From Acanthaster planci (lineage: Eukaryota), in the NCBI RefSeq assembly GCF_001949145.1, contig NW_019091356.1, positions 248,001 to 312,000 of the forward strand: a stretch of DNA of 64,000 nucleotides, written 5' to 3'. The notes beneath the pieces were generated by a model that saw only the letters and a program-made list of their open reading frames with translations, was not told the DNA's origin and searched no databases. Shown piece by piece: positions 4,626 through 57,721 of the stretch. Position 1 is the first letter of the stretch; every line of letters begins with the position of its first letter. Both the position numbers and the translations under genes were made by a program.

Positions 4626-5128
4626 TCATATCAAAACCTCTCCGTTTTGTGTTCGACGTTTGGCACCGGGTGCGCCAGGCACGATGTAGTACCTCGAGTT
4701 ACTATGCGGGCAAGTAGTTGATGATGCAGTTGTGGTGGTGTACTGACTATCTGTACTCATGAAACTTTCCGTAACAATTGACATTGTCGAAGACCGAACT
4801 GATGCCGTCTCGGCCTCGGAACCCTCGCGACTTTCCTCACTTGTTACAGAACAAGGAGGAGTCGGGTCAGACAACACTGATGATGGGGGCGTAATGTCTA
4901 CAAAAGGCTTCTCCATGGAGCTCAGACTACGGGTGGGTCTAACCGTGGCAAGCTTCCTAGGTACAGGTTGTGGACGCTGGACTGGCGTGGGTAATGACCC
5001 TAGATCAGATGGAAGACTGGCTAGTGTGTACTGGACTGGAACAGCAATGCCGGGAACACATTGTGGATCCGACAAAGGTTGCCTGGTGTTACGCTTGTAG
5101 CGACCTCCCAGGCTCGACGAATCGTAAA
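4626..5128 (-). CDS. Gene A exon 8: Ser/Thr/Pro-rich cytoplasmic tail with stop
   Basis: Acceptor ttccctgtgtcag; (V)YDSSSLGG...SRYYIVPGAPGAKRRTQNGEVLI then TGA at 4628-4626. Confidence 0.85.
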
Positions 5129-5676
5129 CTGACACAGGGAAAGATGTAATATTAAAATGTAATATTACCCCTTAATCAAATTGTCCACTGCAACCAATAC
5201 AGTTAAAGTTTCGTAAACAGTGAAAGTTTCCAGTTTATAATGAATGAATGAAACACTTGGTACTTGGCCAGTTGCTGGTTAAACATGATCTACGGACAGT
5301 GCAGGGAATTTGTGGGGAAGGGTTCGATAAATAAAAAATTTCAATTAAATTCCTCAATTGATTTGCGAATGCATTTTGATGCATTTGATTCCGGACTGAA
5401 ATTAGAATGACGCACCACTGCAAGGCTTCAAACCACAAAGATCATGCAAGGAAAGAAATCATGCTACAGTATAACAATGACATCATGGTGCGGGAAATGT
5501 GTTACGGAATAATGAGGCAATGGGAATGGCCTGCACTGATTTGCATATATTTCTTGCAATAATGGGAACCGAAACTAAGACAATAAAAGATTGTTACCTA
5601 AAAGGAAGATTTTACACAATGAAAAATTGACGAAATAATGTCTGACAACAAAATTTCACAATACACAAGTTCATAC

Positions 5677-5762
5677 CTTTAACATTATTGCTGTTCAAAT
5701 CGATGATCTGTATTTTCTGGTTTACATCAGTCACAAACATATCACTGGGACGTTCCATTGTC
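5677..5762 (-). CDS. Gene A exon 7: short cytoplasmic exon
   Basis: Acceptor ttttccctattag; (R)TMERPSDMFVTDVNQKIQIIDLNSNNVK; donor G|gtatga; supplies the phase 2 to 1 bridge needed between exons 6 and 8. Confidence 0.75.
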
Positions 5763-6208
5763 CTAATAGGGAAAATCATGTTGCCGCTTTATTTTATTAA
5801 AGTTAATTCAAGTGTGTAAGTACTGAAAGATGGGCTGATGTTGTCATTGCCGTTAACAATATTCAATGATACCTGCATTTGGTTCCCTGTGTTTCAGGTT
5901 TTTCTGAATCTCTGACACTAACTGTTCCTACCTCTGAAGGAAATTTTATAAAAGTCAAGTTTAGAGAAGGTCAACATAAGACTTTTTGGAAGTCTCTTCA
6001 GCTGTTATCATTTGCATTCGAAAGGTCAAATTCATACACCGAGATTATTATCACACTCAGTTATCATGGTGACAAGCATGCAGATGCTTAGTAGTATATT
6101 GTCATGGGGGTAATGGCACAAGGTAGACAGGGAAATGGGTTAAAATTTTGAGCAGTGTGATTAATGAAACCCGTTAAATAGGACAAGTGAAACCTCAAGA
6201 TGACGTAC

Positions 6209-6398
6209 CTATAGGAGCCATAACGACCACAATTCCACCTCTGAGTAACCATGATCGCTATGATCACCAACAGGACAAAACCTAGGGCGCCACCAGCGAT
6301 GATGGCGTACATAACTAGCGGCATCTCCATGACTTCGTCGAGTAGATTCTGCGTAATAACAGCATCGCCTTCAGAGCCTGGATGACTAGTTGCTTCGG
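6209..6398 (-). CDS. Gene A exon 6: transmembrane helix
   Basis: (A)EATSHPGSEGDAVITQNLLDEVMEMPLVMYAIIAGGALGFVLLVIIAIMVTQRWNCGRYGSY; acceptor taattcag, donor AG|gtacgt; phase 1 to 2. Confidence 0.9.
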
Positions 6399-6762
6399 CT
6401 GAATTATGAAGAGCAGGGATGAAATGGAGATAGGGAACCAGATGAATATAATGACGTCAGCAACATTAAGAAGCAATCAGTCATCATCACACTGATATAT
6501 ACTGGACAAACTGATTTGTTTTCGAGTTCTGCATTTGTTCACAAACTTAAATAAAGAAAACGAGATTTGGCAGTAGGCCTACATACACGTCCTCTCGAGA
6601 AAGGAATCGGCAAGAATAAACGGTCTGCCCTAAGAATGTGGGAAGAAAAATGGAGAACCGTGCAAGAGTCACACTGTATATCTCACACCATACCATGCAA
6701 TCCAGTTGACAATGAATCAAAATGCTCACTCCTTGTCACAATTTAAACACAGAGCTAACTAC

Positions 6763-6872
6763 CTTGCTTGCATTTGCCGCTGACGACGTCACAGGTAGCA
6801 TTCCCTGAACAAGGAGGACATTCCAAAGCGCAATTCATACCGTATGTCCCCGGCTGACAGGGATCTCGGCAT
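6763..6872 (-). CDS. Gene A exon 5: terminal half EGF repeat
   Basis: Acceptor tgtcttgcag; (R)CRDPCQPGTYGMNCALECPPCSGNATCDVVSGKCKQ; donor G|gtagtt; phase 2 to 1. Confidence 0.92.
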
Positions 6873-7897
6873 CTGCAAGACACAGAAAAGAACTTTTATC
6901 ACAAGGCAGTTACCAAAATAGAAGTTAGGAAAATCATAACACGACACTGATTACTTCTACATCGAAAACAACGCATTCATTGCAAAAAAAAAACCAATTG
7001 TTTCCGTTCACTGCACGGAACATCTCCAGTATTGGAGGCTCTGAGATGAATGTTATATATTCAAAGCATGTCTCGTCCCCATTGCATTATTTTTTATCTC
7101 TTTTAGCAAAGGTATACGGACCAACGCCTAGTGACCACAAGACACCTTTAAACCTTCAGTCGAATGGAATTTTCAAAGAACCATTCACTTGTCTACAAAT
7201 TTCTGGTACAGCTTTACCGTACACTCTCTCTCAAAAGCCTCTAAATTCAACGTAGCCCTGATTCAAAACACATCGGTGTATCAAGTATCAAATTCTGGCA
7301 CAGAGATAGTTACCACAAGATAAAATACAAAGCCAACTTATTCTAACACTAACCACAAATTAAATCTGTCTTCGCCTCAACTTGTTGTTTAATCTAGCAA
7401 CGGTTATGACGTCTTTTAATACGTGAATCGTAATTAAGCGTAACACCCCGAGGTGCAAGTGGTTTTCTTAGTTAGAACATGGGGAATCTAGTTTCCTTCC
7501 TTGGGCAGAGACAGAATAACTGGAGCGTACACCCGTTCTGCTTATCGCAAAAGTTCCTAACAAAAACTGTTAGTAAAGCTATTGGCCTGGAAGCAGATAA
7601 TGGCTCGTAATTAACAAAAAATTATAAATAGAAACCACAGGACTGTTCCTATAAGGACGTGCAATTACTGCATTATAAACCCTTCTCATAATAACTGTAC
7701 ATGTAAGACACAGAGTTTAAGCAAGCTCGGAGGATCAAGATTAAAACATACATCGAATGTCACTGCATAGGTGTTGACTTCCGAAATGTTTCTCCAGAGA
7801 AAAGAATCATTTTAATTTTTAAAAATTGCTCAAGGTAATAAGCATTCGAAATCCCAAATTTGCTAAACTAACGTCAGCTAAAGATTTAGAATTTTAC

Positions 7898-10800
7898 CTG
7901 TTGCCTCCATAACCAGGTCTGCAAAAACATTCTCCAGTCACGTGATCGCATGTGCCACCATGCTCGCATCTTTGACACTTCATCTTACAGTTTGCACCGT
8001 AAGTTCCCTCTTTGCATGGAATTCTACAGTCTGGTCCCTTCCAACCAGCCTCACAGATGCAACCACGGATATGATGGCATGTGCCTCGATTTCCACATTG
8101 GCAAAGCCCTGAGCAATTTTCTCCATATTGTTGTCTTGGGCAGGTGTAATTGCATCGAGGTCCTCTCCAGCCACTGGTACAAATACAGCCATACACATGG
8201 TGGCAGATGGCATCGTTTTCACACTGACAGGTCTTTTGACAAGCAGGTCCATATCGTCCTTCAGTACATGGGTTCTCACAATGCCTTCCCTCCCATCCGG
8301 ACTCGCACACACATCCTAGGACTTTGTCACACTTCCCGTGCATCCCACACTGACATTCCACCGTACAGCCAGCACCGAAGAAACCCGGTAGACAAGTTTC
8401 ATTACAGTAACGTCCTTGCCAGCCTGGCGAACACATGCACCCAAATTCTGCATGGCAGTGGCCCCCATTAAGACACGAACATTCCTCCTGGCAGTTTCTT
8501 CCGTAGAACCCATCTGCGCAGCGTTGCTCACAGGCGTCTCCCATCCATCCTGATTGACAGACGCAACCTCTTACTGCATCGCACTCTCCACCATTTTGAC
8601 ACTGACATACTTTGCCACACTGTACTCCATACGTTCCAGCTTGACACGGAACCAAACACGCCTCACCCTGCCATCCTGCTGCACAATCACACCCATTGAT
8701 GGGATCACAAGACGCACCATTGCCACAGTCACATTTCCTACTGCACTGTCTACCATAGAAACCATCCATACACGGCTGGTCACAACTCTCTCCCATCCAT
8801 CCGTCCAAACACTCACACATTCCAGTAACAGCGTTGCAAGATGCATTGTTTACACAATGGCACTGTTGATTGCAGCCGACGCCATACTGTCCATCCTGGC
8901 ACTGATGCTGACACAGTTCCCCAGTCCAACCTGCCTGACACGAACATGAGCCCGACGTTGTATTACACTGACCACCATTCTCACACTGGCATTCCTGTGA
9001 GCAGTTTAGACCAAAGAAGCCTTCAGGACAGGCCTTGTTGCAATGTTCTCCCAACCAGCCTGCAGAGCACCTACAGGCACCACTAACTGAATCACACGAA
9101 GCACCATTAAGGCACGTACAGGCCTCCTTACATCTGTCCCCATAGAAGCCTGGCTGGCAATTATGGTCACAGTGTTCACCTATCCATCCACGCTCGCACT
9201 GGCAGCTACCACTAATGGGATCGCACAATGCACCGTTCTTACACTGACACACTGACAAGCAACCTACACCAAAAGTTCCACGCGGGCAAAAATCAGAGCA
9301 GAATGGTCCTTTCCACCCTGGTGTACATAAACATGAACCATTGCGCTTGTCACATGTCGCCCCGTTTTCACATAGACACCTCTCCTGACACTGAATGCCA
9401 TAGTAGCCATCTCTACAAGGTTCTTGGCACTCATCCCCTACCCATCCAGAAGAACAAGAACAATTGCCGTCAACTGCATCACACAGACCGTCATTTCTAC
9501 ATCTACAGACATTCCTACACTGCAAACCGTAAAAGCCCCGTTGACATTTACTCTGACAAAACTTACCAGTCCAGCCAGCCAGGCAAACACAAGTACCGTG
9601 TTCACGATGGCAACTAGCGCCGTGTAGACATGGGCATCTCTTGGAGCATGCGTGGCCATACGTTCCATTCGGACATGGAATTTCGCAGAAATCACCCCAC
9701 CATCCCGGACTACATAGACACGCCCCTGTCACGTGATCACAAGCTGCATCGTTTGCACATGTGCATTTCGAGGAACAGTCCTGACCGTAGAAGCCAATTG
9801 GACATGATTTATTGCAGTTTTCCCCAAACCATCCTGCCGTGCAACTACACGATCCATCGATGTGGTTGCAAATGGCACCATTTTCACAAAGACAAGTTTG
9901 TCGGCATTGGACTCCATAGGTTCCTTGTTCACAGGGCTGATCACAAACCATACCCTTCCATCCCAGGGTACAGGTACAACTACCTGTCTGTGGATCACAT
10001 AAGGCGCCGTTCTGACACAAGCATTCTTCAGTACAGTTGAAACCATGCAAACCTCTACGGCAGGCCATTTCACATTTTGAACCCATCCATCCGCGAGAAC
10101 ATAAACATGCTCCTGTTACAGCATCACACCTAGCTCCGTTTAAACACTGGCATCGCGAGGTACAGCCATGCCCATAGAATCCTTCGTTACAGATATACTG
10201 ACATAACTCCCCTTCCCATCCATGCTGACAGGTGCAATTTCCAGTTACGAAGTCGCAGTCAGCACCGTTTTGACACCTGCAGACCTCATTACATTCTCTA
10301 CCATAGAAACCTTTTGGACAAGGTTCCTCACACAACATACCTTGCCACCCCAAGGAACACGTACAGGTGCCGTCAACAGCATCGCATGTACCACCATGAA
10401 GACACTGACACTTCATCTGGCAATTGACACCAAAGAATCTGTCTGGACATTTCTCGCTACAAGTATCTCCGGTCCAACCAGCTGGACACGTACATGTTCC
10501 GTGCACTGGGTTACAAGTCCCACCGTTTTCACACCGACACTGTATCAGACAACTTAGTCCAAAAAGTCCAAAGGTACACGAAGCATTGCAGTAAGTCCCT
10601 TGCCAGCCAGGTGAGCACCTGCAGGTCCCTGTGACTGGATCACAAGTCCCTCCGTTCTCGCACTGGCAAACTTCAGAACAACTAGGCCCAAAGAAACCAT
10701 CAGCACACCGCTTGTCGCAGTTTATACCGGTCCAACCAGGTCCACAGGAGCAGACACCTGTGACATGGTCACACGTAGAGTTATTCTTGCAATCACAAAT

Positions 10801-11311
10801 CCCGCGACATCTGTCTCCGTAAGTTTCGTGGGCGCATGGAATACCACAGTGCTCTCCTAACCAACCAGGGCCACAGGTACATTCTCCAGTGATATGATGA
10901 CATTTAGCTCCATTCCGACATTGACATAGTCTCTTACAACCACTTCCATACCGACCACCGGTACATTTGATCTCACAATGCATACCTATCCACCCTGGTC
11001 TACAGTAACAGTTGCCCTCGGAAGGACTACACCCTTCACCATGGGCACAGCCGCATTCATGAGAGCAATCCTGGCCATAGAAACCCCATGGGCAAAGCTC
11101 ACTGCATTTTGTACCCTGCCATCCTGGTGGGCAGTTACAAGTTCCGTTGACTGGGTTGCATGTACCCCTTTCACAGCGGCATTTCTTCAAGCAGTCTTGT
11201 CCGTACGATCCCTCCACACATCGAGTCTGGCAAAGATTTCCACTCCAGCCTATCGTGCAGGAACAGGAGCCGTCTACACTACTGCATGTTCCACCATTTT
11301 GGCAACTACAT
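7898..11311 (-). CDS. Gene A exon 4: 3414-nt exon with about 27 tandem laminin-type EGF repeats
   Basis: Contains ORF 7894..11217; 27 C-x-x-G-[WY]-x-G motifs at 42-43 aa spacing; acceptor ttttccgtag, donor AG|gtaaaa; phase 2 to 2. Confidence 0.97.
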
Positions 11312-12204
11312 CTACGGAAAAATAGATGAAACAGACTTTGGAAATAAAATTATGCCAAATATAATGTAATAACAAGCTGCAAAGGCCAAACACATTTTGT
11401 GACAAAACACAAAGAATGAATAAGACCTTTCGGATTTTCAAAGGAGTACTGGTCATTCTCTTCCAATAAAGTGATTCCAATTATTATTCGGAATGAAACA
11501 TGCTTTGAGTAGAGGACCATTACTGTGGGAATTTTATACTTCTTTTGTTTTTTTTAGAGAAGACACACTTCTCGTATTATTAGTAAACATATACGTTTTA
11601 TGTAGTGTCTTGACGTAAAGAGTAATTAGTGTGGATGTTCATCACGGTTACTCAAGTAATGTTTAACCATGCCATGGTTTAAAAGAGAAGCTGGAAATAA
11701 TCTAAATGAATATGGCGAAGAGCTAACGAAAAGAAATCCATTGTAATAACTATCATGGGACTACGCTCCTAGGATGCCATGTTGCTTTCCTTGGCCAAAG
11801 CCAGGAAATCTTGTCGTTTAGCCAAATTAATCCCAAGGGTACACAAACGCTAAAGGTAAAATCTCACATCAAAAGATGGACAGAATGTCTAAGATGACGT
11901 CTCCGCTATTCAGGACAGGAAGTATTATAGTTGTTGGTCGGATTGAAGTTGATTGTGTAGTGGATAAACAAGTTCATATTGCTGTCATCACTTTCTGAGA
12001 CCCCCATGTGAGAAAATGAATCCACAAGAATGCATCATTCTGAGTTTGAACCTACAGATTGGCGCATCAAAGGTTTAGTATCATATTGATACTAACAAAT
12101 GAAGTGAAAGAATGTTAGGATATAATGTGGGCCCCACAACTTTATGATCTTTGTCCAAACTAAGACATTCATTCATAAAAGGAAAAGTTTGTTCTATTAA
12201 CTAC

Positions 12205-12508
12205 CTTGCTTGACATCGGGATCCATAGAAACCCTCTGGGCACCGATGTTCGCATGTGTGACCAGTTACATGTAATTTGCTAGGACAGGCACATGTCCCC
12301 TTGAAGCGGTCACAAAGGGATCCATATTGGCACAGACATGGTCGACTACAGTTGGGTCCATACCGCGTTCCATTGCATGGCTGAGTGCAATCCGGCCCGG
12401 TCCAGCCACGGCCACATCGACAACTACCGTCTTCCTTGTTACATTTCCCGCCATTTTGACAGCGGCAAAGATCTCGACAGTCTTGACCCCACGTTAGCTT
12501 CGTACACG
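12205..12508 (-). CDS. Gene A exon 3: first EGF repeats
   Basis: Acceptor tattgcag; (P)CTKLTWGQDCRDLCRCQNGGKCNKEDGSCRCGRGWTGPDC...CPEGFYGSRCQA; donor AG|gtagtt; phase 1 to 2. Confidence 0.92.
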
Positions 12509-22690: not shown

Positions 22691-22773
22691 GTTTGGTGCA
22701 GTCGGGTCCTTTACGTCTCCAGCCAGGACAACATTGATATCTCGTCACATTTACACCGCTTTCATTTTGGAAT
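22691..22773 (-). CDS. Gene A exon 2: CCxGW motif
   Basis: Acceptor tttcccgtag; (T)FQNESGVNVTRYQCCPGWRRKGPDCTK; donor C|gtaagt; phase 2 to 1. Confidence 0.88.
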
Positions 22774-30820: not shown

Positions 30821-30936
30821 GTGTAAGAGCAAACGTTCCTTCCTTCAGGATTCGGGTCACTGCAAACAGATGACACCAAGACCACCAAGAAAGTCAAAGT
30901 AACACCATACAATGTTGACAAAATCATATCTGCCAT
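30821..30936 (-). CDS. Gene A exon 1: signal peptide and start of the EMI-like cap
   Basis: ATG at 30936; MADMILSTLYGVTLTFLVVLVSSVCS-DPNPEGRNVCSY; hydrophobic core, then the family-typical GxNVC motif; donor AC|gtgagt, phase 2. Confidence 0.85.
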
Positions 30937-42275: not shown

Positions 42276-42589
42276 TCAGAAACCATCCCTTTTTGCCACA
42301 TTAGAGTTGGTCATCCTAGCGTTTCCACCGGCACTTGGTCGCTCCACATCTCTCTCCAACGTCACTGATGGTATCTCATATCCATCAGCATCTATTCCGG
42401 AGTACGTGGGGTTTTCAACCGTACCTGTCTGGACTTCATCGTAGATGTCGATGTATGAGTTGGGAGAGGGTTGAAATCGGGGATCATGGTCGACATCACT
42501 GCGTATAGTCTCATACCCTCCTAAGCTGTTGTTAGGATCTGTCACATCTCTTGTGAAAGTGGCTGGATTTCGGGGCAAAGGGGTTGGTG
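42276..42589 (-). CDS. Gene B exon 9: cytoplasmic tail with NPxY and Tyr motifs, stop
   Basis: (A)PTPLPRNP...GGYETI...SYIDIYDEVQTGTVENPTYSGIDADGYEIP...KRDGF then TGA; acceptor tgtaccgtag. Confidence 0.88.
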
Positions 42590-42983: not shown

Positions 42984-43108
42984 CTAAATCCACATTCCCA
43001 GCCTGGTATCTTATTGTACCGTTAGTATGAGGTACACTGCTCTGAAGGGACATCCGTGACATGGGGTTCGAAGTTCCGTTGGCTTGTGATACAAGTGCCA
43101 CACTTGGT
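42984..43108 (-). CDS. Gene B exon 8: short cytoplasmic exon
   Basis: (T)PSVALVSQANGTSNPMSRMSLQSSVPHTNGTIRYQAGNVDL; acceptor acgtacag, donor G|gtgagt; phase 2 to 1. Confidence 0.82.
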
Positions 43109-43544: not shown

Positions 43545-43671
43545 GTATTTGGTTTAGGACGATTGTATTTACACAAGATGCACACGGCCGTGATAATAAT
43601 GGCGAACAACAGGAAGGCGACCGACGCGGCAATCGCTGCGATTACCCCAGGACTCAAATCCATGCCACTTT
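43545..43671 (-). CDS. Gene B exon 7: transmembrane helix
   Basis: (E)SGMDLSPGVIAAIAASVAFLLFAIIITAVCILCKYNRPKPN; acceptor ttttcgtag, donor AC|gtaagt; not in the ORF track. Confidence 0.9.
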
Positions 43672-43963: not shown

Positions 43964-43981
43964 AATAATAATAATAATAAT
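43964..43981 (+). repeat. (AAT)6 microsatellite
   Basis: aataataataataataat in a gene B intron. Confidence 0.8.
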
Positions 43982-44604: not shown

Positions 44605-44708
44605 CTAAACAAGTTCCACTGATAGGCTCACATTGCTCGGATTCTGTACAGATGCACGTTTGGGAACAACTTTCACCCCAATGGTTGTCTTCACATGGTA
44701 ATGTACAT
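44605..44708 (-). CDS. Gene B exon 6: terminal half EGF repeat
   Basis: (L)CTLPCEDNHWGESCSQTCICTESEQCEPISGTCL; acceptor ctttcccaag (AAG type), donor G|gtaaga; not in the ORF track. Confidence 0.9.
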
Positions 44709-44996
44709 CTTGGGAAAGATACAAATTAGCAAGGAAAAACAGTTACACCAATTTTTTTTTTCTAATACTACAACATTTCCATCAACTCATGCAGTATGTT
44801 CATGAGAATACTTTTCATCCTTTTCACTTATGGCTGTGAATGATAATTGTTATGACAGTCTTTTAACAAAGAGGGCGCCATTCATGAAGCGCGTTGCACG
44901 ACAACGGAGATTGAGACATATGACTCCTGATATGGCCACAAAGTCACATTTCCACCATAATGCATTTCCAAAGCAATTACTGAAAAAAACACTTAC

Positions 44997-45441
44997 AATT
45001 TTCCCTTCCATCCCTTGGGACAGCTGAAGCAGGTGCCACCCACGTGATCACAACCATCATCTTCTGGGCAGTTACACTGCTGTTGACAATCATCACCAAA
45101 ATATCCCGATGGACACCGTTTATCACAGTAGTCCCCAACCCACCCAGGCAGACAGGTGCATCGCCCGTCCGTTGGTTGACAAGATGCTCCGTTGACACAC
45201 TGACAATTCTCCCGACAGAGATATCCTTGTGTGGCATTATCACAACTATGTGTGCAGTACCTCCCTCGCCATCCGTCTTGACATACACACCTGCCCAGGA
45301 TATTGTCACAGAACAACATCTCCGGGCTGCACAAACTACAGAAAGCAACGCTCCCGCTCTGGCAACTTGAATTGGTAGAGGAAGCCTGGCAGTTTGTTTG
45401 ACAAAGATCACCAGCAAAGTCGATCGGACACAGGCAGCTAC
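44997..45441 (-). CDS. Gene B exon 5: EGF repeats
   Basis: (G)SCLCPIDFAGDLC...CVNGASCQPTDGRCTCLPGWVGDYC...CPKGWKGK; acceptor tgttgacag, donor TT|gtaagt. Confidence 0.93.
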
Positions 45442-45576
45442 CTGTCAACAAAATAAAGGTAATGTGAATAAAATACTCCAGAGTTATAAAAATAACGAAA
45501 TAACTCAATGAACTATGACGAATTGAGACACTCTGGAACCTTCAGATCACAACAGATGTTCCATGATTTGGCTTAC

Positions 45577-45786
45577 CAGTGACTGGGTGACACGAACCGC
45601 CATTTTGGCAAGGACAAGAATTTCCACAATCATCTCCATACCAGCCATCTGGACATGTCCGCTCACAGTGCTGACCAGTCCAACCTGGCTTACAATCACA
45701 GGAACCGTTGGTGTGGTTACACTCACCGTCGTTCAGACAGTAACACGTCAAGGTACAATTACGGCCGTAAGTTAAGGCTGGACAAA
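45577..45786 (-). CDS. Gene B exon 4: EGF repeats
   Basis: (V)CPALTYGRNCTLTCYCLNDGECNHTNGSCDCKPGWTGQHC...CHPVT; acceptor ttgtgtag, donor G|gtaagc. Confidence 0.93.
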
Positions 45787-46240: not shown

Positions 46241-46335
46241 CTTTTGGACAGGATTCACCCTCCTGCAAGAACCCATCACAACATCCGTAACTCTTCACCC
46301 TCAGGTACAAATCAGGAGCAGAGATAACGCCTGAC
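46241..46335 (-). CDS. Gene B exon 3: EMI end with CCxGF
   Basis: (R)SGVISAPDLYLRVKSYGCCDGFLQEGESCPK; acceptor tgtgtcatag, donor G|gtaaga. Confidence 0.88.
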
Positions 46336-46529: not shown

Positions 46530-46619
46530 CTGAGAGCATGGCACGTCGCAGAAGGGTAAAACGAGTCACACTCGTCCATCAGTTCACCTTCTGTCTTGTA
46601 ACTGGTTGCCAAATCTAAG
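46530..46619 (-). CDS. Gene B exon 2: EMI middle (two Cys)
   Basis: Acceptor tatttag; (S)LDLATSYKTEGELMDECDSFYPSATCHAL; donor AG|gtaagg; phase 2 to 2. Confidence 0.75.
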
Positions 46620-46968
46620 CTAAATACGTGTACAAAAATAACTCCTTGGTGATTGTCACTGACAATGGTTCATAATAAAAGAACATAGTTTGTAAACCCA
46701 TGGGTTACCAGTCAAAATTGTCGGACACTCAGGTACCCCCTTTTCCACCCATCTATTGAGTTTCTTAATGTCTGGGATTTTATAGTGAATGAACAAAATA
46801 GGCCTGACTTTCAACATAATCCTTATGAAACCTGTGAAACCTAAATCAAGCATTCAATTTCACAGGTGAGCAAATGGTCGAGTTTTTATCCCCACCTACC
46901 TATCCATTCCCTTTCCCCCACTCCCCCCGGGCAACTGCTATCTCAAACCTACATGAACAAATACCCAC

Positions 46969-47216
46969 CTTATTTTAGCACACACGTTTACTTCATCGTG
47001 GATTAGACCAAACGGATTGACGAAAATCCATGCTGCTTCAACTTGTTCATGATCTGACGACAATATCTCTGATTCAGATAAGCAAAGAGTTCCATGTGCC
47101 AAGAGTAAAGCAGTGGCAATGTGATGTAAAACGTCCCTTCTTGTGTGACAAGCGTGAACAGCCATGTTGACAATGGTAAAAGATGTTATGGGCATTTCAA
47201 AGAGGAAGCATGTCAT
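46969..47216 (-). CDS. Gene B exon 1: leader/signal region and EMI start
   Basis: ...HIATALLLAHGTLC-LSESE...DEVNVCAKI; donor AG|gtgggt, phase 2; start ATG is 47216 or the in-frame 47165; an acceptor ttcacttcag just upstream suggests a non-coding first exon. Confidence 0.7.
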
Positions 47217-50200
47217 CCGCTGAAGTGAATGAATTCTGCTTTATCTTTGTTCCCTTCTGGCTATCCACTTCCTCGAATTCAATTTTGAGGATGTTATGAA
47301 CCCAACATCAAAGCAGTCATTTCAGTAGAACATCGAAATAACGTACAGTGGTCCACGTTGCACAACTGAAGCATTTTGTCTAGTCGTAACAGTCGTCGTA
47401 TTCCACGGGTAAATTTCAAGTTCACTCTACTAACACCACTGATTCGAGAACAGGCGCAGAGTCAGAGGTTCAAAAGTATTTCCGAATTTTCAGTTCTGTT
47501 TAGAACCAAACGCCTAATTCCCGTCCTTGGTGTATGCTGAAAATGGTAGGCCTTAGTATACAACAAACACGCAATTGTTAGGTCATGCTTGGTCACTACA
47601 TGCATCAATGACCATCATACTGGTTACCCTTTGTTGTTCAGCTACAAAACTGTTCTGATCAAAACATACATATTCATGAATAAGATGACTCACTACTGGG
47701 TAGATGATATGGATAGCAAAGTCTTCATCTTTGTGTTTTTACGAGGGCATGTATTGGAGCTGAAATTTGCATTGACGCAAATAGCATTCATTGATCAATA
47801 CCAGCAATGTTCAGCTTGAAAAGGAAAGTTAGAGTAGAGAACAATAATTCTATTCAACCATGTTTCTGAGAAAAAACGGTCGCCCTCAACAGACCACAAA
47901 GACTTCAGTAACCGATATGAACATAAATCTTCCGTATGAATGGCAACGTGGTTTTCAAAGGAAATTATAATGATGTCACCTTCAACACAGGAAATGAAAA
48001 CACTACATGGTAGGGGACGAAAACTGCTCGGGCATGCACTCAAAGTCCTAATCTGTGGAAACATTCCACTGAGAGTCTTGCACTATTCATAATTAAATCC
48101 GGAACATTGTCAAAGAGTGTTTCTGCTCATCTTCCAAAGAGTCACAGTGCATTAAACAATTGAGATTTTCAGATAACATTATCTATCCTGACTTTTGGCT
48201 TAGTTAAAACGCTACGAATAAATTCAAATCACTTGGAGAAATGAACTTCATGCACTTCTTGCTAACTAGAATCAAAGATATAAATGGCTGCTCTGTTACT
48301 GTGCATGCATGAAAAGGCCATGCATACTCGAAAAGCTAACCATATCATTTTAGATGGCGACCTCACTTTGAATTGGCTTAGCAAATTCTGGAGCAGCGTG
48401 GAGCAACATTTGAACTATATAGCGCCCTCGTCACAACGTTAATCTGGCTTAAACACTGATTTGTACCCATTTCTGTTTCATGTAGGCTAACCGTAGGTCA
48501 AAGATGGATTGTAAAGTGATGTGAGTCTTTCTAGCTTACAACTATACAATGACATTTGCATAATTTGATCTTAATCTGGTGGTCACATGTTATATTTTGC
48601 TGAATTGTTGGGCCACGTGGCTTCCAAGAAAAGTTTAAGCAGTGTTCACTCCATGTTTTTAGGGAAAATAAAATAAACAAAATATTCGCAACAAATTCAA
48701 TAATACGTTTTCCACCAACAATATAATCTGGATTACGATTTCTAGATGGTCTATGAAATCCGATCTAATCTTGCTAAACTGAACGATATGAAATTTCATC
48801 GTGTTCTAAAGTTCTTCAAGCATTTTGTCTTTTATTAAATCAGGTGCACTTTTATTATTTTTTCCAGTAACTTACGATTGTCAACTTGCAGAAATTCTTT
48901 GATGGAAATTCCTATCCTATCCTATCAACAGTTCTGTTATGCTAGAGATGTAGTTTTGTAATCTTGGAACAGAGCAGTTAAAGTCATGAATAAAACAATT
49001 GGCAGTGAAAACCCACTGAATGACACAAACAGGAAACGGAAACCAGCGAAGATCCTGATAAAGTTGATTGTTCTGGGTTCCAGTTTGTGAGAGACCAACC
49101 TTTAGTACACGGTTAGCTTACAATCAAGAGACACCACTCAACCTACTTCCCGATTAAAGTCAATATGACACAGAACATTCACGTTCCTCGGTCGGCGTTT
49201 TTTTTTAAACTTTGGTTTTATTTACCTAAGTTTAGGGTTTCAACATGGTGATGACAAGCTGTCGGGTTCTAATATCCGTCCAGAGCGTTTCGTCATTATA
49301 TCAGAAAAGGGATGCACTTATCCGCAAGCATTATGGCCGTCAATTAACCTGAACACGTTCTTAACTTTAAGCAGAAATGTATCAATTTATGCGTATGGCA
49401 AAAACTGTCTCTTCTGCTTCGCGTATATGAGAAAAACTCATTAAGCCTTCCACACTGTTTAATTAACATGAAAGAACTCCTTTACGGAACATGGTTTCTT
49501 GCCCGAGCATCCTTTGGCGCAGCTTTCCACGTCAGTAATATTTTCTACGAAGGTTTGATTCGCTGATTTCCATACATTCTTGAAACTGATGTAATATTAA
49601 GGGTGCCGAGAGAGAACAAAAATACTTCGCAACAAATGTCAGCAACTAAAAAAATGTAAAAATACGTCAGCGCAGTTGTAATATCAGCGTTTAATCCGGA
49701 CTCAACAAAAATAGACACTTATGCCACTATTTCTAATTATTTAAAGGTTAGATTTGTAACTGATGGATTAAATACAATTACAAGTACATGTATGTTATGC
49801 TTCATTATATTTCAATTCCAGCAAAGTTAAAAGCTTTTTTAAAAAATATTTCGATACTCGCCAGCATTTAAGTATGAATTAGTCAAAGCTCTTTTAAATT
49901 AATTCACCAAGAAGTTACTACTTTTGTTTATTTCGAATGGCACATAAATTCATATTGCCAAAAAAGTTATAGTATACTTCATAGCCTCGGGATAAAACAG
50001 CTTTGAATTATTTCGAAATACAGTCTATATTCTACAGGACTCCGTCGTCTTCGCTGCAATTCAAAGTCAACTTTGATTTGGCATTATGTTATAAAACTTC
50101 TAGAATTTTTGTAACTGATCATTTAGAAAATATCATGACATTTCCACAGGCACAGTTTTTCAGTCTTTCCGTCCATTATACGGAAAACTAGCAAAAAGAG

Positions 50201-52641
50201 GAGATACCGTTGCCCTAGATAAATGGAAGACAATAATTCATTAGTATCTAATTACTTAGTTTCTGAGTTGGTCATTGACGTCTTATTAAAACACTCCTAA
50301 TTTGAGGATCTCCTCGATATCATTAAACATTAACTTCAGTGCTTTTCCCTGTATTATTGGAATAATTAGCACAAGAACAAAAGAGGCAAACGTCTTAAAA
50401 AGCTGACAAGTTGAACGAAATAACGAAAAGTATACATTTACATGTATATTGATATAAATCCGACAGTACATGAAGCGATATAAGCAATCTGAGACTGGAC
50501 ACAAAACGTGAAAATACAAAAAATTAGTGTGAACTCTCCCTTTTTCATCCGGAGATTTGCTTGAAAACTGACGAGAAAATGAGTACACGTGCTACAAACG
50601 CTCAGAATTGCCTTAAAGGACAAGAAAATGGTGAAGCATATGACCCGCGGTTACACGTGGAGTTCTTGTGACACATCCCAAAATAAGTATACATGCATTG
50701 TAATGGCACTGTGACAGCAGATTGGACAACTGTCAAATGACGATGACTTCAGAGCATGAATCTTGGGACAGACCTGTGATTTTACTTACTTATACGGGTT
50801 GGGTTTGTACCATGCACGGTGTTTGATTCACACAAACCGGATGGACCGAGGGTGTTTGTTACTAAAAAGCCAGCAATTACGCTTCCGTCATACGCATTGC
50901 TCATTCCCTAATGATAAAAGGCAGATTACATGGACTGTCTCCAGGCAAACAAGAGTCGGATTACTTAGTCTGGCAGGATTTTTCTGGAGGGAAGAAACTT
51001 GACATATTGCCAAGCGTCAAGGTTAAATGCTACGCTACTAAATCAAGGTAGGAAGCCATATTTGGACAAATCAGAATGCTTCCCTTTTTCCTCACAGCAA
51101 AATGCAGAGTGGTTTTACCGTATACGTTGAGAATTGTCGTCATTATTGACACGTGCATAAAATAATACTTAGACAACATGTATACAGACACTGAACACTA
51201 AGAAAAAGGTCTAGTTATGGTTTCTTAGCGACACACTGCATTGCGAACTCTTTCTATTGCATCAATTTAGTTTAAATCCACCATAAGGTGAAAAATATTA
51301 CACTCTTCAATTATTCAGTATTGCAGATTATGGCATTAAACAAAACTCGAGCAACAAACAAAACGATTGATTATTATACTAAGTAAGGTAATCTATGTGA
51401 GTTGTGATTTAAAAAATGGTTAATCAACAAGAGTGAGTCCATAAGGAATGTCCTCAATCACACGATCATAAAATTCTCTTGTGATATCTTCGCCTATCAC
51501 TGTCACGAGAGTTCACTGCATTATGGGTCGTTATATAATTTATCTGAGATTACGGTATGATTGATATTTAGATCACACGAACTAATTCATCAAGTTAAAT
51601 TTTAACCTTGATATTTTGGACAACCGATCTACAAATACTAGAAAGGCTGCAATCGAACACTTTTTCAATAGCATACAATATTCCTAACTACAGCTAAAAA
51701 TTAGAGGACCGAAATGTGGTAACATTCTCCCGTTTTAACCTCAAGTGAAGAAACATGCAGTAGTGTACGGTCTTGACACGTGTTACAACAACCATGCTAC
51801 AGTCCATTTTATACCATAATATATCGCTGCTGTTTTAGCCAGTAACTGAACAAATTTTCTTTTAATATGTCTTACTAGTCCACAAGCAAACCCTAGTAAT
51901 GGCCAAAAATAGTAAAAAACTAAAGATTACGTGACTAATCGACCGCATTTTTTACATGATTTGCACTTACGTTCCATTTGAGGAAACAACCTTCACATAA
52001 CCTGTATGTAAACAGTTCTACAAAATTTCTAGTATGAAAATAACTGAGCCGGGAAATACGTTTACAAAAAGCATTAATTATTGACACTTTGTCAAGTTCA
52101 CTTATTGTACTTCCTTTTGCCAAATACAAGCACATTGCGTTTTGCACATTGTTGATGCTTGGTAAAATACATAACACTATAATGACGAGAAATAAAAAGG
52201 AATTGGCATTTCAGAGCCCAAGATGGCTTCCATAATATAATAGCTACACTGCAAAAGCATTTTCCATTAAATTAGGAAAAAGAACCTTGAAGCCACGGGT
52301 GACAATAATTTCCCGTAAAATTTACACTCACCGTAATTACAAACTTAAAGAGTAAGACAACTGATGACTTAGGCCTATCCTTTACTTGCTCATACATTTG
52401 ACAGAAAATCGTTGGCTCTCATAGCTTCCAAATTATCTGTCGTAAATTCACGGGATTTCGTTTTACAATTTAAGAGCATACTTTGATCTGTTTGTATCGC
52501 AAATGTTCCAGAACCGAAGCAAACAATAAAGACAATGACAGGAGTTGTACATTGCTCATCTACCGATTGTCTAGACTGTTTCCACTCTAGAAACATTTAT
52601 TGCAACATTTAGGAACACTGCACAAGTGGTAAAGAAAACTC

Positions 52642-53894
52642 TTAATTACCACCTGTGGGCGTGTTCTCATACAATGGACAAGTTTCTTCAAACTGTAGAG
52701 GGCAGGTGTTACCATACCTGACTGGGGGCGTATCGTAAACAGGTCTGAGCCCAACCAAGGGGGACGTCGGTTCTTCAACGCTGGCCCGCTGCATCATTTT
52801 TTGAACAGCAGGGGGCGTATCATACACGGGAGTGGCAACTTTCTGCTCGGGTGATTTAGGCAAGATGTCGTAAACCTGTGCACTAGGCATGCGAGGTGTT
52901 CCTGGCAGAACATCGTAGACAGGACGCACGACCGGAGGTGAAAATGCTGAAAGGTTATGATCGGTATTTAAAGCTTGTTCGTGATTCTCCAAGCCCGAAG
53001 CTGGCATTTTCAGAGTAAGTCCTTCAGGGACATTCTTCTTTGGGAGGTTCTCGTAAATTTCCCCGTCTGCCGGTTTCTTCATTTCAATGGCGTCATACTG
53101 GTTCGTGCCTAAGTTACCGTTCGGTATGCCGTTGAGAGTTCCATTTCTATTTCCTGAATCATTCAAGCCATGTTCAATGGAGCATCGTCGAGCCAGCTTG
53201 TCATAGTCCGTTGATCGACCCTGTGCACCCAATTCATCGTATGTATTCAGTCCAACGATACCAGTTTTTCTCTCAGAATCGACACCGTGGGCTTCGTGTC
53301 GTTCAAGCTTATCGTAACCAAGGTGACTCTCAGGACCAAGTGTCGAATAACCAGGAGCTGCTGGTATAGGCGTGTCCAACTGATCGTCTCTAGTAAGGTG
53401 GGATACACCACGCTGTCTGTCCAGTTTGTCGTATGGGCCTTGTTCTGTGGTCGGTCCTATGATGATCATATTGTATGCCTCATCGTCTGGATCTGTGGGG
53501 ATATTTCCACCCATGGTGTCGAATACCTCTGGCGCCTTGACGACTGTATCCAACCCGGGTACGTTCTGATATGGCGAAACTACCTCCTTACTCTTCTCTG
53601 CGTCGCATGTTTTCGAGAACACAGCCCCGTTTGGTCCTAGGCGAATCTCTATGCCGACTTTCTTCATTTTTGGTGATCCGTCACTAGCTTCACTGGGCGC
53701 ATCTCCACAACTTGTAGCCTCTTTGAGGTCCTGATATGTGTTTGAGAGACCAGACGGCTGTTTAGTGTTTATGAAAGCAATGTCGTAGTCGTCGAATGAC
53801 ACGTCTTTTGTGCGGGTGCTGTTTGCTTGATCCCCTGCAGCATTAGTATGGCCTTCACGGTCTGGTATTTCTGTGTAAATGTCCGGGGTTGGAG
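52642..53894 (-). CDS. Gene C exon 6: long tyrosine-motif-rich cytoplasmic tail, stop
   Basis: Acceptor ttcttccatcag; (A)PTPDIYTEIP... runs in frame into ORF 52642..53802; 18 Tyr, mostly in YxxL/I/V, YDxP or YxN contexts. Confidence 0.9.
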
Positions 53895-54363
53895 CTGATG
53901 GAAGAAAAAAATGATTACTTGAACATTATACATTTCGGGAAAGCTTATGGTTATATTAGATCACGGAGCTTTAAAACCAAGAAACTCTAGCAAACTATGA
54001 TATACAATAAACGAAAAATAATCCCACAGTAACAAGAAAACACTGCAGGTATACAATGCAGTAACTATGTCTCCAAGAAAAACACTACTCTTTGCTAATT
54101 CAGAATTAAGTTTAACAAGGAAGCACATAGGCCTACTTCTGTTTATCTGAAAAGTATATTTAAATTTAGTGAAAATAACTCATTGTAATTAACAAAGAAC
54201 TATTTAAAATATCAAGACCCTCAAAGATAATGCGTAAAAACAAGACATACAAGAGGCAAGTCTAATGCTAAGATTTTACGGGAAAGGGGAATTTGATTGG
54301 ACGTACATTAAAGAAAAACTCTGTCTAGGATACTTTGTTCATCATGATGAAGGAAATTCCTAC

Positions 54364-54422
54364 CTCGACCGGGAGAGTTGGCATTTAATAACTGAAAGAC
54401 AACTGCAGGATCGGACTTTCGC
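54364..54422 (-). CDS. Gene C exon 5: short cytoplasmic exon
   Basis: Acceptor ttttgcttccatag; (R)RKSDPAVVFQLLNANSPGR; donor G|gtagga; the only good phase 2 to 1 bridge I found between exons 4 and 6. Confidence 0.65.
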
Positions 54423-55544
54423 CTATGGAAGCAAAACGTCAAACAATTTTGTCAGTTTTGATGTATTTATTTACTGGGGGAAAGTTGGTCACATACATGT
54501 ACGTTTGGTTTAACGCGAATCGCATGAAATTGCTTCCATAATCACTCCGAGGTAATTTTGACCAACCTTTGGGATTTTCATATTGACACAACTTTTAAGA
54601 CTTTCTTAAAAACAATGGATTATTTTATCCCCTTGTCTGGAACAAAACATTGCAGAAATCGCTACGCTTTTGATAAACGAAAAACAACATGGAAGCGTAT
54701 TCTCTCAGTGTCAACAAATATATCATTTACATTTGCGACATTTGCTGCATCCCATCAATATACCTCTCAATCATTGATTTAGTCGATGATATTGAAAGGC
54801 AGTGGTGTATCAACAAGGGGGGACAAGCCCCTCCGTTTTAAGTATTTGAAAGTACCAGCATTTTAGACACGGTAGGGCCTACCATTACCTGATCTTAAGA
54901 AATTCTCTTGTGAACAAAAAATCTAGTTTGCCCCTGCAACCAATATGCCACTGTCGAATTGCTCTTTGTGTGGACAAAGGGAGCAAGACTAAAAGCGATG
55001 TAGCGACATCCTCCGCTTATCAACTCGATATGCCGTGTCAAAGCAGTCCTAAAGGCTGGAGATTTTGTTAGCTTAATTCTTGCTTTTTCCGCTTCCAGTA
55101 TGACCATTTCCTTCCCTGTTATTCAATTAAAACCAAGTCTAACCCTGAAGCAGTTAATTTATTCGATTACCTGGAGTAAAAACAACTTATGTAAACCTAT
55201 ACCTGGAGCTTGTTTTATGTTCAGAGTTCTTAGACCTATTTCACTCATTAAAGTAACATCGATTATTACTATGCTTAATAAAGACAAACGGGAAGCATTA
55301 TGTCGTTTTTCTAGAGTTTAATTCCATTTTGTACGAGTGTTACCATGAGATATTCCACCTTTATTTGTTTCCTGTGATTGTTATAATACAAACACACGTA
55401 TTTCATTAATGCTGTGCATGTATTCACTTCACTTTGTTCCATTCATTATTACTTTCCCATAGCAATCATGTATGAGACAATGCAAACTATGAGCTAATCA
55501 TCAAAATATAACTGCTTAGTCACAAAAATAAAGAGCGTGCTTAC

Positions 55545-55893
55545 CGCCTATCTCTTGCTTGACGTTTTCTCTTTGTAACAAAGACGACAACCAGTGACAC
55601 TAAGACGACAAAAGCTACTGCCACTCCAACCAAGCCACCGATCATCCCAATATGTTCACCATCTGTCGGAGACCCCTGTGGTGACTCCCCACCCTTTCCC
55701 AGGGTCCTGGGCCCATCAACCTTCGAGATATTCCCTGGAGGCGATCCAGAGACAGTTCCAGATACAAAGGATGGTGACGAGGGTGACCCCTTTGGGACGA
55801 AAACTGCTGTGTCGTTGGAGAGCGTAGGCGTGGTTCCATCGACCTTGGAGGGAGTCAAGGCATCCGTCAGCTGTGATTGAGTTGTTATTTCCT
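55545..55893 (-). CDS. Gene C exon 4: S/T/P/G-rich stalk, TM helix and basic stop-transfer segment
   Basis: (E)EITTQSQLTDALTPSKVDG...IGMIGGLVGVAVAFVVLVSLVVVFVTKRKRQARDR; donor CG|gtaagc; phase 1 to 2. Confidence 0.88.
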
Positions 55894-56281
55894 CTAATTT
55901 TAGGAAAATAGGACCCAATGAATGCAAAATGGAATGAATGTTCACGTTTTCTTTAATGCAAGCACAGTAACCCCACGACCACGTTTTTATCTCCTTTTTG
56001 ACAACATATTTATCAAAAACTTACATATTCCAAAGATACATTCATGATATGATATCCAGTTGAGTACCATCCCAATCATAACGAACAACATTAATTAATT
56101 TCTCTCTCATTTCTCTGTTTTTAAAATGCGATTCATCTTTGTAGAGTAAAGTCAGTAAGTTTGAATTCTTTAAATCATTTGGTATTTCGCCAGAAGAATA
56201 GGTTTGGGAATGACTCAAATTGCTTGCTTGTAATGTCTCAGTTCTTCCCGAGTTTGGCTCCTTATTCAGTTCTTAAGTTAC

Positions 56282-56397
56282 CTGATGTATTTTGTAGACA
56301 TGATCCGTCAGACTGCATCACCCAACCGTTACAGCAGGTGAATACGATGTTGTAACTATCACGGTAAGCTACTCTCGTCTGAGTAGAGTACACAACT
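56282..56397 (-). CDS. Gene C exon 3: EMI end with CCxGW
   Basis: (R)VVYSTQTRVAYRDSYNIVFTCCNGWVMQSDGSCLQNTS; acceptor cattattag, donor G|gtaact. Confidence 0.9.
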
Positions 56398-56818
56398 CTA
56401 ATAATGAAGTAGGGAGGAACATTCATCGACAATAATGATTTCCAATTTATGGTGTGGATATAAATGTACACCATTGTGCTTGTATATAAAAAAGGCTACG
56501 GAATGCAAAGAATTTTATCAGAAAATGGCACAATGTAAACACACAGAGTATGATTTAATCGTTGAACTTAAAACAATAAGTGGTCAAAATGTTTCCTGGA
56601 AATGCATCAGGTTCGCATATATATGAAAGAGCAAACAAAGGAATTCTATCATTTTTTATTTTTTCCTAATTCTATGCGACCATTATGAGAATCTACAATC
56701 AGGTAAGTCCCAGCCCAGTTCAATTATTAAAACATCATAACTATAGGGTTTCTGCATTACTTATTTTTAAAACGAGTTAGTTGGACTATGTAATCCTAAA
56801 GAAAGCCTTCCAACGTAC

Positions 56819-56917
56819 CTGTAACGCGTGCACCGTGACAAACCCCAAATTCCACATTTCGAGTAGGATTTATGGGATCTTGAAACCTGATAAGTTTCTT
56901 GATATGTCACCGTTGCT
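56819..56917 (-). CDS. Gene C exon 2: EMI middle
   Basis: (R)ATVTYQETYQVSRSHKSYSKCGIWGLSRCTRY(R), resembling the MEGF10-type EMI pattern (V-x-x-QESY...C...W..C.R.R); acceptor cacaacag, donor AG|gtacgt; not in the ORF track. Confidence 0.9.
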
Positions 56918-57578
56918 CTGTTGTGAAGGCGATTGAAGAGAAACACAGAAATAGTTTAGATAAAGTCACTACTGTCACAATAAAAACATTCGTGACCATT
57001 AGAAACCGTCAAAGATCGCTCACAGGAAATAACCTTTTCAAAACATTCAACTAACATTCAAACATTTATGAACTTTTAAATACTGTCACTTATCTCCAGT
57101 AGTTTAAACAACCTGGACACAGTAAATAAGAAAAGGTTTGTTGGAAAGATAAGGAATTGTATGGGATGAGAGTAAACTAAAACACAGTTGCTTTTAGAAT
57201 TGTGGTTGCAGGGGACAACAAACTATGAATAGAGAACTGGAAGGTATGGAGGAATCAAATACGTATTTCAGGTTAAGAGAAATTTTATTCTCAATTATCA
57301 TGGAGAAGTATTTAACAGTCATTATGTGAATTAATCAACCAATAAGAATCTCTTCTTCCCCTTTCTTTGCTTTCGTAACTCAGACCCTTCAAATCAACCG
57401 TATTTCATTTCCAATACCAAGATAGAAATTTCAATACTTTTCGAATAACTAGTAACGCTGAGAAAAGGCTTTCATCATCTTAAAATCCAATCTAGTAATT
57501 AATCTTTGAATTAAGCAATTAATTAATTCATCACTGAAATTGAAAATAATTAACTACATTTGTTTAGATTGGGCCTAC

Positions 57579-57721
57579 CTTTCGACACTGGAACACAGCC
57601 CAATGTTTCCATCAGTTTGCGCCGTAGACAAAATCACGCAATTCAAAACTGTGATTACGAAGAAAATCTTTCCAAAACAAGCACAGTGTCGTGCGATTCC
57701 GTGGAGACCGGGCCATTCCAT
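57579..57721 (-). CDS. Gene C exon 1: signal peptide and first EMI Cys
   Basis: MEWPGLHGIARHCACFGKIFFVITVLNCVILSTA-QTDGNIGLCSSVE; donor AG|gtaggc, phase 2; an acceptor tttatcag 2 nt before the ATG implies an upstream non-coding exon. Confidence 0.8.

What the first reader, a model, noticed from the sequence alone, without database searches (positions are those of the whole stretch)
4626..57721. Tandem trio of EMI-family receptors with very different ectodomain lengths and signalling tails: a candidate engulfment/immune receptor module
Seen in sequence: three head-to-tail minus-strand genes share one exon grammar. It runs: signal+first-Cys exon (phase 2), an optional EMI-middle exon (2-2), a CCxG[WF] exon (2-1), the ectodomain, a TM exon (1-2), a short cytoplasmic exon (2-1) and a terminal exon. 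The EGF count goes 0 (C), about 5.5 (B), about 29.5 (A), while tyrosine-motif density runs the opposite way (C much greater than B, B greater than A). The terminal exons of B and C both begin APTP. Established: CED-1, Draper, MEGF10, PEAR1 and SCARF receptors mediate apoptotic-cell and microbe engulfment, and insect Nimrod genes form clusters. Inference: local duplication followed by division of labour into a long tether (A), a CED-6/GULP-coupled engulfment receptor (B) and a signalling amplifier (C). This would be a Nimrod-like cluster that may be undescribed in this lineage.
Basis: partly seen in the sequence, partly recalled or inferred. Interest (0 to 1): 0.85.

Follow-up and report, generated by a model that had tools for sequence, protein, structure and literature searches.

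The report
Three divergent starfish cell-surface receptors
Three neighbouring, transcribed starfish genes encode very different receptors related to the corpse-clearing CED-1/MEGF10 family, and one has no EGF stalk but keeps a conserved tail of tyrosines that likely docks signalling proteins; that the three work as a team is untested.

Summary
The three minus-strand genes are real. RNA joints confirm 5/5 introns of C, 5/8 of B and 4/7 of A, with no cross-gene joint. C and B equal Acanthaster planci RefSeq proteins. EGF units number 0, ~5.75 and ~29.7. Corrections: tyrosine density is flat (4.0, 4.6, 3.9 per 100 aa); only YxxΦ counts rise (13, 4, 2). The EMI exon grammar looks family-wide. A and B are no closer to each other than to vertebrate MEGF11. 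None has the NIM repeat that defines Nimrod genes, and B's NPxY lies far from its CED-1 position. Local duplication is neither shown nor rejected; synteny and co-expression were untestable. The best part is C, an EMI-only receptor whose tail tyrosines are conserved in Asterias (17/18 against 46% background). Splicing also changes the parts: skipping an 86-nt exon cuts A's tail from 207 to 24 aa, and RefSeq B has an isoform without the EMI-middle exon, giving an A-type short cap. Verdict: a new variant of a known receptor superfamily; the three-part module is unproven.

The parts
57579..57721 (-). Gene C exon 1: signal peptide + first EMI Cys (phase 0-2)
   Evidence: joint 56917/57579; = P0001
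56819..56917 (-). Gene C exon 2: EMI middle (2-2)
56282..56397 (-). Gene C exon 3: EMI end with CCxGW (2-1)
55545..55893 (-). Gene C exon 4: Ser/Thr/Pro/Gly stalk + TM helix (1-2)
   Evidence: helix 202-239
54364..54422 (-). Gene C exon 5: short juxtamembrane exon with PxVxF motif (2-1)
52642..53894 (-). Gene C terminal coding exon: tail with 18 Tyr, 13 YxxΦ, 2 YDTP
49551..52641 (-). Transcribed stretch after C's stop, likely a ~3 kb 3' UTR of C (libraries unstranded; two abutting contigs)
   Evidence: tables 2 and 8
46969..47216 (-). Gene B exon 1: signal peptide + NVC (0-2); ATG 47216 as in RefSeq, 47165 also possible
46530..46619 (-). Gene B exon 2: degenerate EMI middle (2-2); cassette, absent from RefSeq isoform X2
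   Evidence: joint not listed
46241..46335 (-). Gene B exon 3: CCxGF (2-1)
   Evidence: joint not listed
44605..45786 (-). Gene B EGF exons 45577-45786, 44997-45441, 44605-44708 (~5.75 eight-Cys units)
43545..43671 (-). Gene B TM exon (1-2)
42984..43108 (-). Gene B short cytoplasmic exon (2-1)
42276..42589 (-). Gene B terminal coding exon: A|PTP start, 4 YxxΦ, distal NPTY
30821..30927 (-). Gene A exon 1: signal peptide + NVC (0-2); predicted, outside both laid stretches
22691..22773 (-). Gene A exon 2: CCxGW (2-1); no convincing EMI-middle exon between exons 1 and 2
   Evidence: low RNA depth
12205..12508 (-). Gene A exon 3: first ~2.3 EGF units (1-2)
   Evidence: low RNA depth
7898..11311 (-). 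Gene A exon 4: single 3414-nt exon with ~26 EGF units; candidate exitron 9438-9566
6763..6872 (-). Gene A exon 5: last partial EGF unit (2-1)
6209..6398 (-). Gene A TM exon (1-2)
5677..5762 (-). Gene A short cytoplasmic exon (86 nt, 2-1): included in run X7, skipped in run X1; skipping shifts the frame
4626..5128 (-). Gene A terminal coding exon: Ser/Thr/Pro-rich tail (207-aa tail form) or 12 codons then stop (24-aa tail form)

Best explanation
The window holds three separately spliced, strongly diverged receptor genes of the CED-1/MEGF10/PEAR1/SCARF superfamily, likely an old cluster whose members each likely work as a cell-surface recognition or adhesion receptor signalling through phosphorylated tail tyrosines. 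Shown: three transcripts, the architectures, selection on C's tyrosines, and two spliced tail forms of A. Inferred mechanism: ligand or neighbouring-cell binding at the N-terminal EMI/cap clusters the receptor, a Src-type kinase phosphorylates the tail, and SH2/PTB proteins dock. C would be the strongest docking platform (13 YxxΦ, 5 ITAM-spaced pairs, 2 YDTP, 4 YxN; partner assignments such as Syk/Shark, Crk/Nck and Grb2 are recalled). B would signal or internalise through 4 YxxΦ and a distal NPxY. A would be a long-reach binder whose tail is switched off by skipping one 86-nt exon. The three likely diverged by gain and loss of whole exon modules (EMI middle, NIM, EGF block). Nothing here requires that they bind each other.
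For: Separate exon chains and no cross-gene joints. C and B equal RefSeq proteins. EMI-type N-termini in all three. C's juxtamembrane stretch matches a profile from 28 family references, 0 of 300 shuffles as high (part of this may be the basic cluster after any TM). C tail Tyr conserved 17 of 18 against 184 of 400 other residues, Fisher p 3e-5; 15 of 18 Tyr lie in Yxx[LIVMFP], 0 of 20000 shuffles. Deep divergence: no significant A/B/C pairwise match outside EGF, best E 0.045; A-B EGF identity 36-40%, within the 33-45% seen to outgroups. Module loss shown in one gene: B isoform X2 lacks exactly the EMI-middle exon. C read without B in run X12. Precedent: the short EMI receptor NimA acts in adhesion, not engulfment (PMC13076899, passages).
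Against: A common origin by local duplication is not shown: both trees are unresolved, A and B are long branches, and the trio is not one clade in the free trees. A's and B's juxtamembrane stretches do not beat shuffles (170/300 and 38/300). Synteny and cell-type expression could not be tested. A's first three introns have no listed joint, and no database protein for A was found. A's two tail forms each rest on contigs of one run. No ligand, phosphorylation or binding data exist here.
Confidence: 0.62

Rival explanations
1. Division-of-labour module: A tethers the target, B couples to CED-6/GULP, and C is a co-receptor that amplifies the signal in the same phagocyte.
For: Adjacent and same strand. 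Complementary anatomy, with YxxΦ counts 2/4/13 against EGF 29.7/5.75/0. C's tyrosines are under selection. A has a nearly tail-less form that would need a partner to signal. Contigs of all three occur in run X1. MEGF10/Jedi bind Gulp1 through NPxY (PMC5454446, passages).
Against: Tyr density is flat. The gradient rests on three points. B's NPxY is out of the family position. C was read without B in X12. C is well represented in X5 (0.33 of words) while A has no coding depth there; contig absence is weak evidence. No binding data.
Confidence: 0.15
2. A patchwork of ancient lineages: A is a SCARF/SREC-type gene, B and C come from the CED-1/MEGF10 line, and their adjacency is an old linkage or an accident without shared function.
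For: A's short cap resembles SCARF1: best single-stretch PDB match of A exon 2, E 0.057, weak; SCARF1's CC lies about 22 residues into the crystallised chain that starts at residue 20. A's tail is Ser/Thr/Pro-rich and poor in YxxΦ. The trio is not a clade in the free trees.
Against: SCARF1 has a six-Cys NIM-like repeat after CC, which A lacks. B makes the same short cap by exon skipping, so the cap can arise locally. All three lack NIM. B and C share the A|PTP exon start. One clade is not rejected (p 0.135).
Confidence: 0.18
3. Recent tandem duplicates in an immune birth-and-death array, as in insect Nimrod or oyster MEGF-like clusters.
For: Tandem arrangement. B's tail found no relative among 1.84 billion representatives apart from itself and one unrelated weak hit; relatives over 50% identical would be hidden in its cluster.
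Against: No pairwise similarity beyond family level. No duplicated DNA between the genes. C has one relative per named species at about 45% identity. No pseudogene fragments were seen.
Confidence: 0.05

Closest known systems
CED-1 / Draper / MEGF10 / MEGF11 / PEAR1 (Jedi-1)
   Same: Signal, EMI with CCxG, eight-Cys EGF array, one TM, PxV juxtamembrane motif, tyrosine tail; apparently the same EMI intron positions. RefSeq auto-names B 'MEGF11'.
   Different: No NIM repeat after CCxG in A, B or C (23 of 31 references have it). No membrane-proximal NPxY. C has no EGF and 13 YxxΦ against 0-8 in 28 references. A has ~30 EGF units and no EMI core.
SCARF1/SCARF2 (SREC-I/II, scavenger receptor class F)
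   Same: Short cap with CCxGW instead of a full EMI, EGF stalk and TM; a Ser/Pro-rich tail (recalled for SCARF). Seen in A and in B isoform X2.
   Different: SCARF1 has a NIM-like repeat after the cap and a 421-aa ectodomain (PMC11563577); A's is ~1370 aa. Orthology was not tested, as no SCARF sequence could be placed in the trees.
Drosophila NimA
   Same: Short EMI-led ectodomain and an unstructured tail with conserved tyrosines; EMI-dependent cell adhesion without a scavenger role (PMC13076899). Closest functional analogue of C.
   Different: NimA keeps one NIM and two EGF repeats; C has a Ser/Thr/Pro stalk instead.
Insect Nimrod cluster (NimB, NimC, Eater)
   Same: CCxG motif; clustered genes with different repeat numbers (PMC4073527).
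   Different: Defined by NIM repeats, which are absent here. The repeats here are eight-Cys MEGF-type units.

Membership tests
Nimrod superfamily | CCxGY/W motif near the N-terminus | tested here: met
   CCxG[WF] in A, B and C; definition from PMC4073527
Nimrod superfamily | NIM repeat(s) C-terminal to the CCxG motif | tested here: not met
   No pattern match and no hit of a NIM profile at E<=10 in A, B or C; 23 of 31 references match
CED-1/Draper/MEGF10/PEAR1 orthogroup | Full EMI domain | tested here: inconclusive
   Met for C; degenerate in B; core missing in A
CED-1/Draper/MEGF10/PEAR1 orthogroup | One NIM repeat followed by an eight-Cys EGF array | tested here: not met
   EGF array in A and B but no NIM; neither in C
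CED-1/Draper/MEGF10/PEAR1 orthogroup | Membrane-proximal NPxY for CED-6/GULP | tested here: not met
   Absent in A and C; 109 aa from the TM in B against 26-77 in 21 of 28 references. A distal NPxY may still bind a PTB domain.
CED-1/Draper/MEGF10/PEAR1 orthogroup | Groups with these genes in a phylogeny | tested here: inconclusive
   Trees of 81 and 136 columns unresolved at the base; long branches
CED-1/Draper/MEGF10/PEAR1 orthogroup | Mediates engulfment | not testable with these tools
   Needs uptake assays
SCARF1/2 (class F scavenger receptors) | Short cap with CCxGW, no EMI core | tested here: met
   A and B isoform X2
SCARF1/2 (class F scavenger receptors) | Six-Cys NIM-like repeat after the cap | tested here: not met
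   Present in SCARF1, absent in A and B
SCARF1/2 (class F scavenger receptors) | Orthology by phylogeny or synteny | not tested
   No SCARF sequence was returned as a usable protein; no genome held
MEGF6 | EMI followed by calcium-binding EGFs; no TM | tested here: not met
   All three have a TM and no cEGF block
ITAM/SH2 multi-tyrosine signalling receptor (works-like, gene C) | Conserved paired YxxL/I motifs in a disordered tail | tested here: met
   5 pairs with 6-12 spacers in C, 3 in each Asterias protein; 17 of 18 Tyr conserved. Spacers are mostly longer than the classical 6-8 (recalled).

The most novel reading that the evidence does not exclude
Gene C is a stand-alone multi-tyrosine signalling subunit built from a CED-1-type receptor, a sea-star counterpart of DAP12/FcRγ-type adaptors. 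It would pair through its EMI domain with the neighbouring long receptors, whose tail (A) and EMI core (B) are switched by exon skipping, making one locus a splice-tuned, modular phagocytic receptor complex in an invertebrate deuterostome.
Probability: 0.13. Interest if true: 0.78.

Novelty: new variant of a known kind. Interest (0 to 1): 0.42.

Why it matters
Echinoderm engulfment and adhesion receptors are little described. This locus offers three natural deletion variants of the CED-1/MEGF10 design: EMI only, degenerate EMI with a short stalk, and a cap with a very long stalk. That makes it testable what the EMI domain does alone. B's exon-skipped isoform shows a simple route from a full EMI to the SCARF-type cap. 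C's conserved tyrosine array is a concrete handle on Src/Syk-type signalling in sea-star cells. If the genes act independently, this is a useful annotation, not a new system.

Tried and rejected
No whole genome held, so no synteny and no search for the true Acanthaster MEGF10. No RNA holder was on record in the run search; raw RNA runs of the same species label were laid instead. Searches for A's database protein with its large exon (115 hits, none echinoderm) and its tail (none) failed; both are word-limited, so this is weak. The metagenome scan for C loci found none. The representative search with B's tail gave only B and one unrelated hit. The AlphaFold model of C was unusable (mean pLDDT 32.5); no fold search was run. 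No solved EMI structure matched C. Atlas hits were all under 0.9, leads only. An open stretch 5873-5933 as an A exon breaks the frame after the TM exon and has no joint: rejected. B acceptor 43041 rejected for 43108. The paper search for MEGF10 intron positions returned nothing useful. Two papers were not held, so Draper/SCARF1 tail isoforms as precedent are recalled only. The bacterial promoter scan is irrelevant. No complex prediction was sent, since adjacency was the only reason. Accession adjacency is no synteny proxy: B and C accessions lie ~2000 apart though the genes are neighbours.
Full report
Gene structures. I read window 1-60000 by eye on the minus strand and scanned the whole window for ORFs. 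Three minus-strand genes with canonical GT-AG introns emerge: C (57721-52642, 6 exons, 672 aa), B (47216-42276, 9 exons, 585 aa) and A (30927-4626, 8 exons, 1598 aa). C is identical to XP_022084855.1 (LOC110976128, 'uncharacterized', Acanthaster planci). B is identical to XP_022086835.1, auto-named MEGF11 isoform X1. No database protein was found for A. No other convincing coding gene lies between them.

Transcripts. Laying one contig run and three raw RNA runs on 41000-59500 listed 10 joints: all 5 introns of C and the five 3' introns of B's 8. Laying three contig runs and one raw run on 3900-23850 listed 4 of A's 7 introns, a skip form and an internal joint, all from contigs. A's exon 1 lay outside the stretch, and its exon 2-3 and 3-4 joints were not listed at low depth. 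No cross-gene joint was listed. In run X12, 122 reads were laid and the bins over B had zero depth while C was covered. Tissues are unknown and depth is low, so this only hints that C can be expressed without B.

The stated gradient. EGF units are 29 plus a partial one in A, 5 plus a partial one in B, and none in C, as reported. Tyrosines per 100 tail residues are flat: A 8/207, B 7/153, C 18/445. YxxΦ counts are 2, 4 and 13, or 1.0, 2.6 and 2.9 per 100 aa. Tyrosine-rich tails are normal in the family: 28 reference tails hold 2-20 Tyr and 0-8 YxxΦ. C stands out by the number and regularity of its motifs, not by density.

Gene C. It has a Pfam-level EMI domain (33.5 bits, cut-off 25), a Ser/Thr/Pro/Gly stalk, one TM and a 445-aa tail. 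Relatives with the same build exist in Asterias amurensis and A. rubens, which are near-identical to each other, and an unnamed fragment covers the tail. 17 of 18 tail tyrosines are kept in Asterias against 184 of 400 other aligned residues (Fisher p 3e-5; Pro 31/43 is the next best-kept residue checked). 15 of 18 lie in Yxx[LIVMFP], reached by 0 of 20000 shuffles. Five YxxL/I pairs with 6-12 spacers occur in C and three in each Asterias protein. The juxtamembrane stretch matches a profile from 28 family members (0/300 shuffles), while A's and B's do not (170/300, 38/300). I read C as a CED-1/MEGF10-type receptor that lost its EGF block and became a phosphotyrosine docking platform; the docking partners are recalled knowledge, not tested.

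Gene B. Its EMI is degenerate: no Pfam hit at E<=5, but 14.0 bits on a profile of 31 reference EMIs, above all 500 shuffles. RefSeq isoform X2 equals my model minus the 90-nt EMI-middle exon, so that exon is a cassette by annotation; I saw no reads for either form. The NPTY lies 109 aa from the membrane, against 26-77 in the 21 of 28 references with an NPxY. GULP coupling through NPxY is established for MEGF10/Jedi (PMC5454446, passages), but B's motif is not in the homologous place.

Gene A. Sixteen residues separate the first Cys from CC, against 55-64 in most references, and no convincing middle exon was found among 13 candidates in the 8-kb intron. The CCxGW exon's best single-stretch PDB match is SCARF1, weakly (E 0.057). 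SCARF1 has a NIM-like repeat after its cap and A does not. Two tail forms occur: with the 86-nt exon (run X7) a 207-aa Ser/Thr/Pro-rich tail, without it (run X1) a frameshift and a 24-aa tail ending in the last exon. One contig at depth 2 lacks 9438-9566, which is exactly one 43-aa EGF unit in frame and starts at the only GTAAGT of the 3.4-kb exon, 1 of 21 GT..AG pairs at that spacing. This is a candidate exitron on thin evidence.

Local duplication. The shared exon grammar is weak evidence. Twelve broken vertebrate MEGF10/11/PEAR1 models, which I picked by eye from the 86 proteins with a CCxG motif, break at the same places: one lacks exactly the middle segment, seven start or change at the first border, one breaks after the CCxG exon, and three lack one residue at the three borders. 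This is indirect, from gene-model artefacts and not intron maps. A and B EGF arrays are 36-40% identical, no closer than either is to MEGF11 or Draper. Outside EGF no A/B/C pair aligns significantly. The EMI tree (35 rows, 81 columns, A left out) and the EMI+TM tree (25 rows, 136 columns; I left out two MEGF10 rows, A. rubens, Branch_b and Saccoglossus) are unresolved. Holding B+C or A+B+C together is not rejected (AU p 0.225 and 0.135). In favour of common local origin: adjacency, loss of NIM in all three, and the A|PTP exon start of B and C (9 of 11 nt). If duplication happened, it is old.

Comparison with known systems. Nimrod proteins are defined by NIM repeats after CCxGY (PMC4073527, passages). 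23 of 31 references have one and A, B and C do not, so this is not a Nimrod cluster, though it resembles one in layout. The nearest functional analogue of C is Drosophila NimA, a short EMI receptor that mediates EMI-dependent adhesion and not scavenging (PMC13076899, passages). Engulfment therefore cannot be assumed.

Literature. Searches for the accessions returned no paper. Searches for echinoderm EMI/MEGF receptors (listings only) listed none describing these genes. An echinoderm matrix review mentions EMI only for collagen XXVI (PMC10381214, passages). Other papers seen as passages: PMC11563577, PMC8396242. Subscription papers and supplementary expression tables were not searched and may list these genes. 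An unchecked note on an oyster MEGF-like cluster suggests such lineage-specific clusters recur.

Verdict. The observation largely holds. The genes are a new variant of a known receptor superfamily, with C and the splice switches as the worthwhile parts. The tether/engulfer/amplifier module remains a hypothesis (about 15%). Interest 0.42.

Noticed in passing
window 9438-9566 (-): Candidate exitron in A's 3.4-kb exon: GTAAGT...AG, 129 nt, removes exactly one EGF unit in frame; one contig at depth 2, with a retained form in the same run.
   Followed up: partly
window 5677-5762 (-): Skipping of A's short cytoplasmic exon frameshifts the last exon into a 24-aa tail. The same skip in B would also truncate its tail but was not seen in reads.
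   Followed up: partly
window 46530-46619 (-): RefSeq isoform X3 of B (P0122) starts inside the EMI-middle exon and has no signal peptide.
   Followed up: no
window 7898-8800 (-): EGF units 23-28 of A are all 42 aa, one residue shorter than the rest, suggesting a separate block expansion.
   Followed up: no
window 49551-52641 (-): About 3 kb transcribed after C's stop, rich in SNPs and small indels, ending ~2.3 kb before B's start codon.
   Followed up: no
window 57722-58410 (-): C's 5' leader is at least 680 nt; one contig continues into sequence not found in the window.
   Followed up: partly
window 16040-16153: Short dispersed repeat in A's intron 2, hit by many unrelated transcripts with loose ends.
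   Followed up: no
window 25889-26055: Inverted repeat with 48-nt arms, 92% complementary, 71 nt apart, in A's intron 1; possibly a small transposon remnant.
   Followed up: no
window 5873-5933 (-): AG/GT-flanked stretch that is open only as a phase 1-2 exon, which could replace A's TM exon; no joint supports it.
   Followed up: partly
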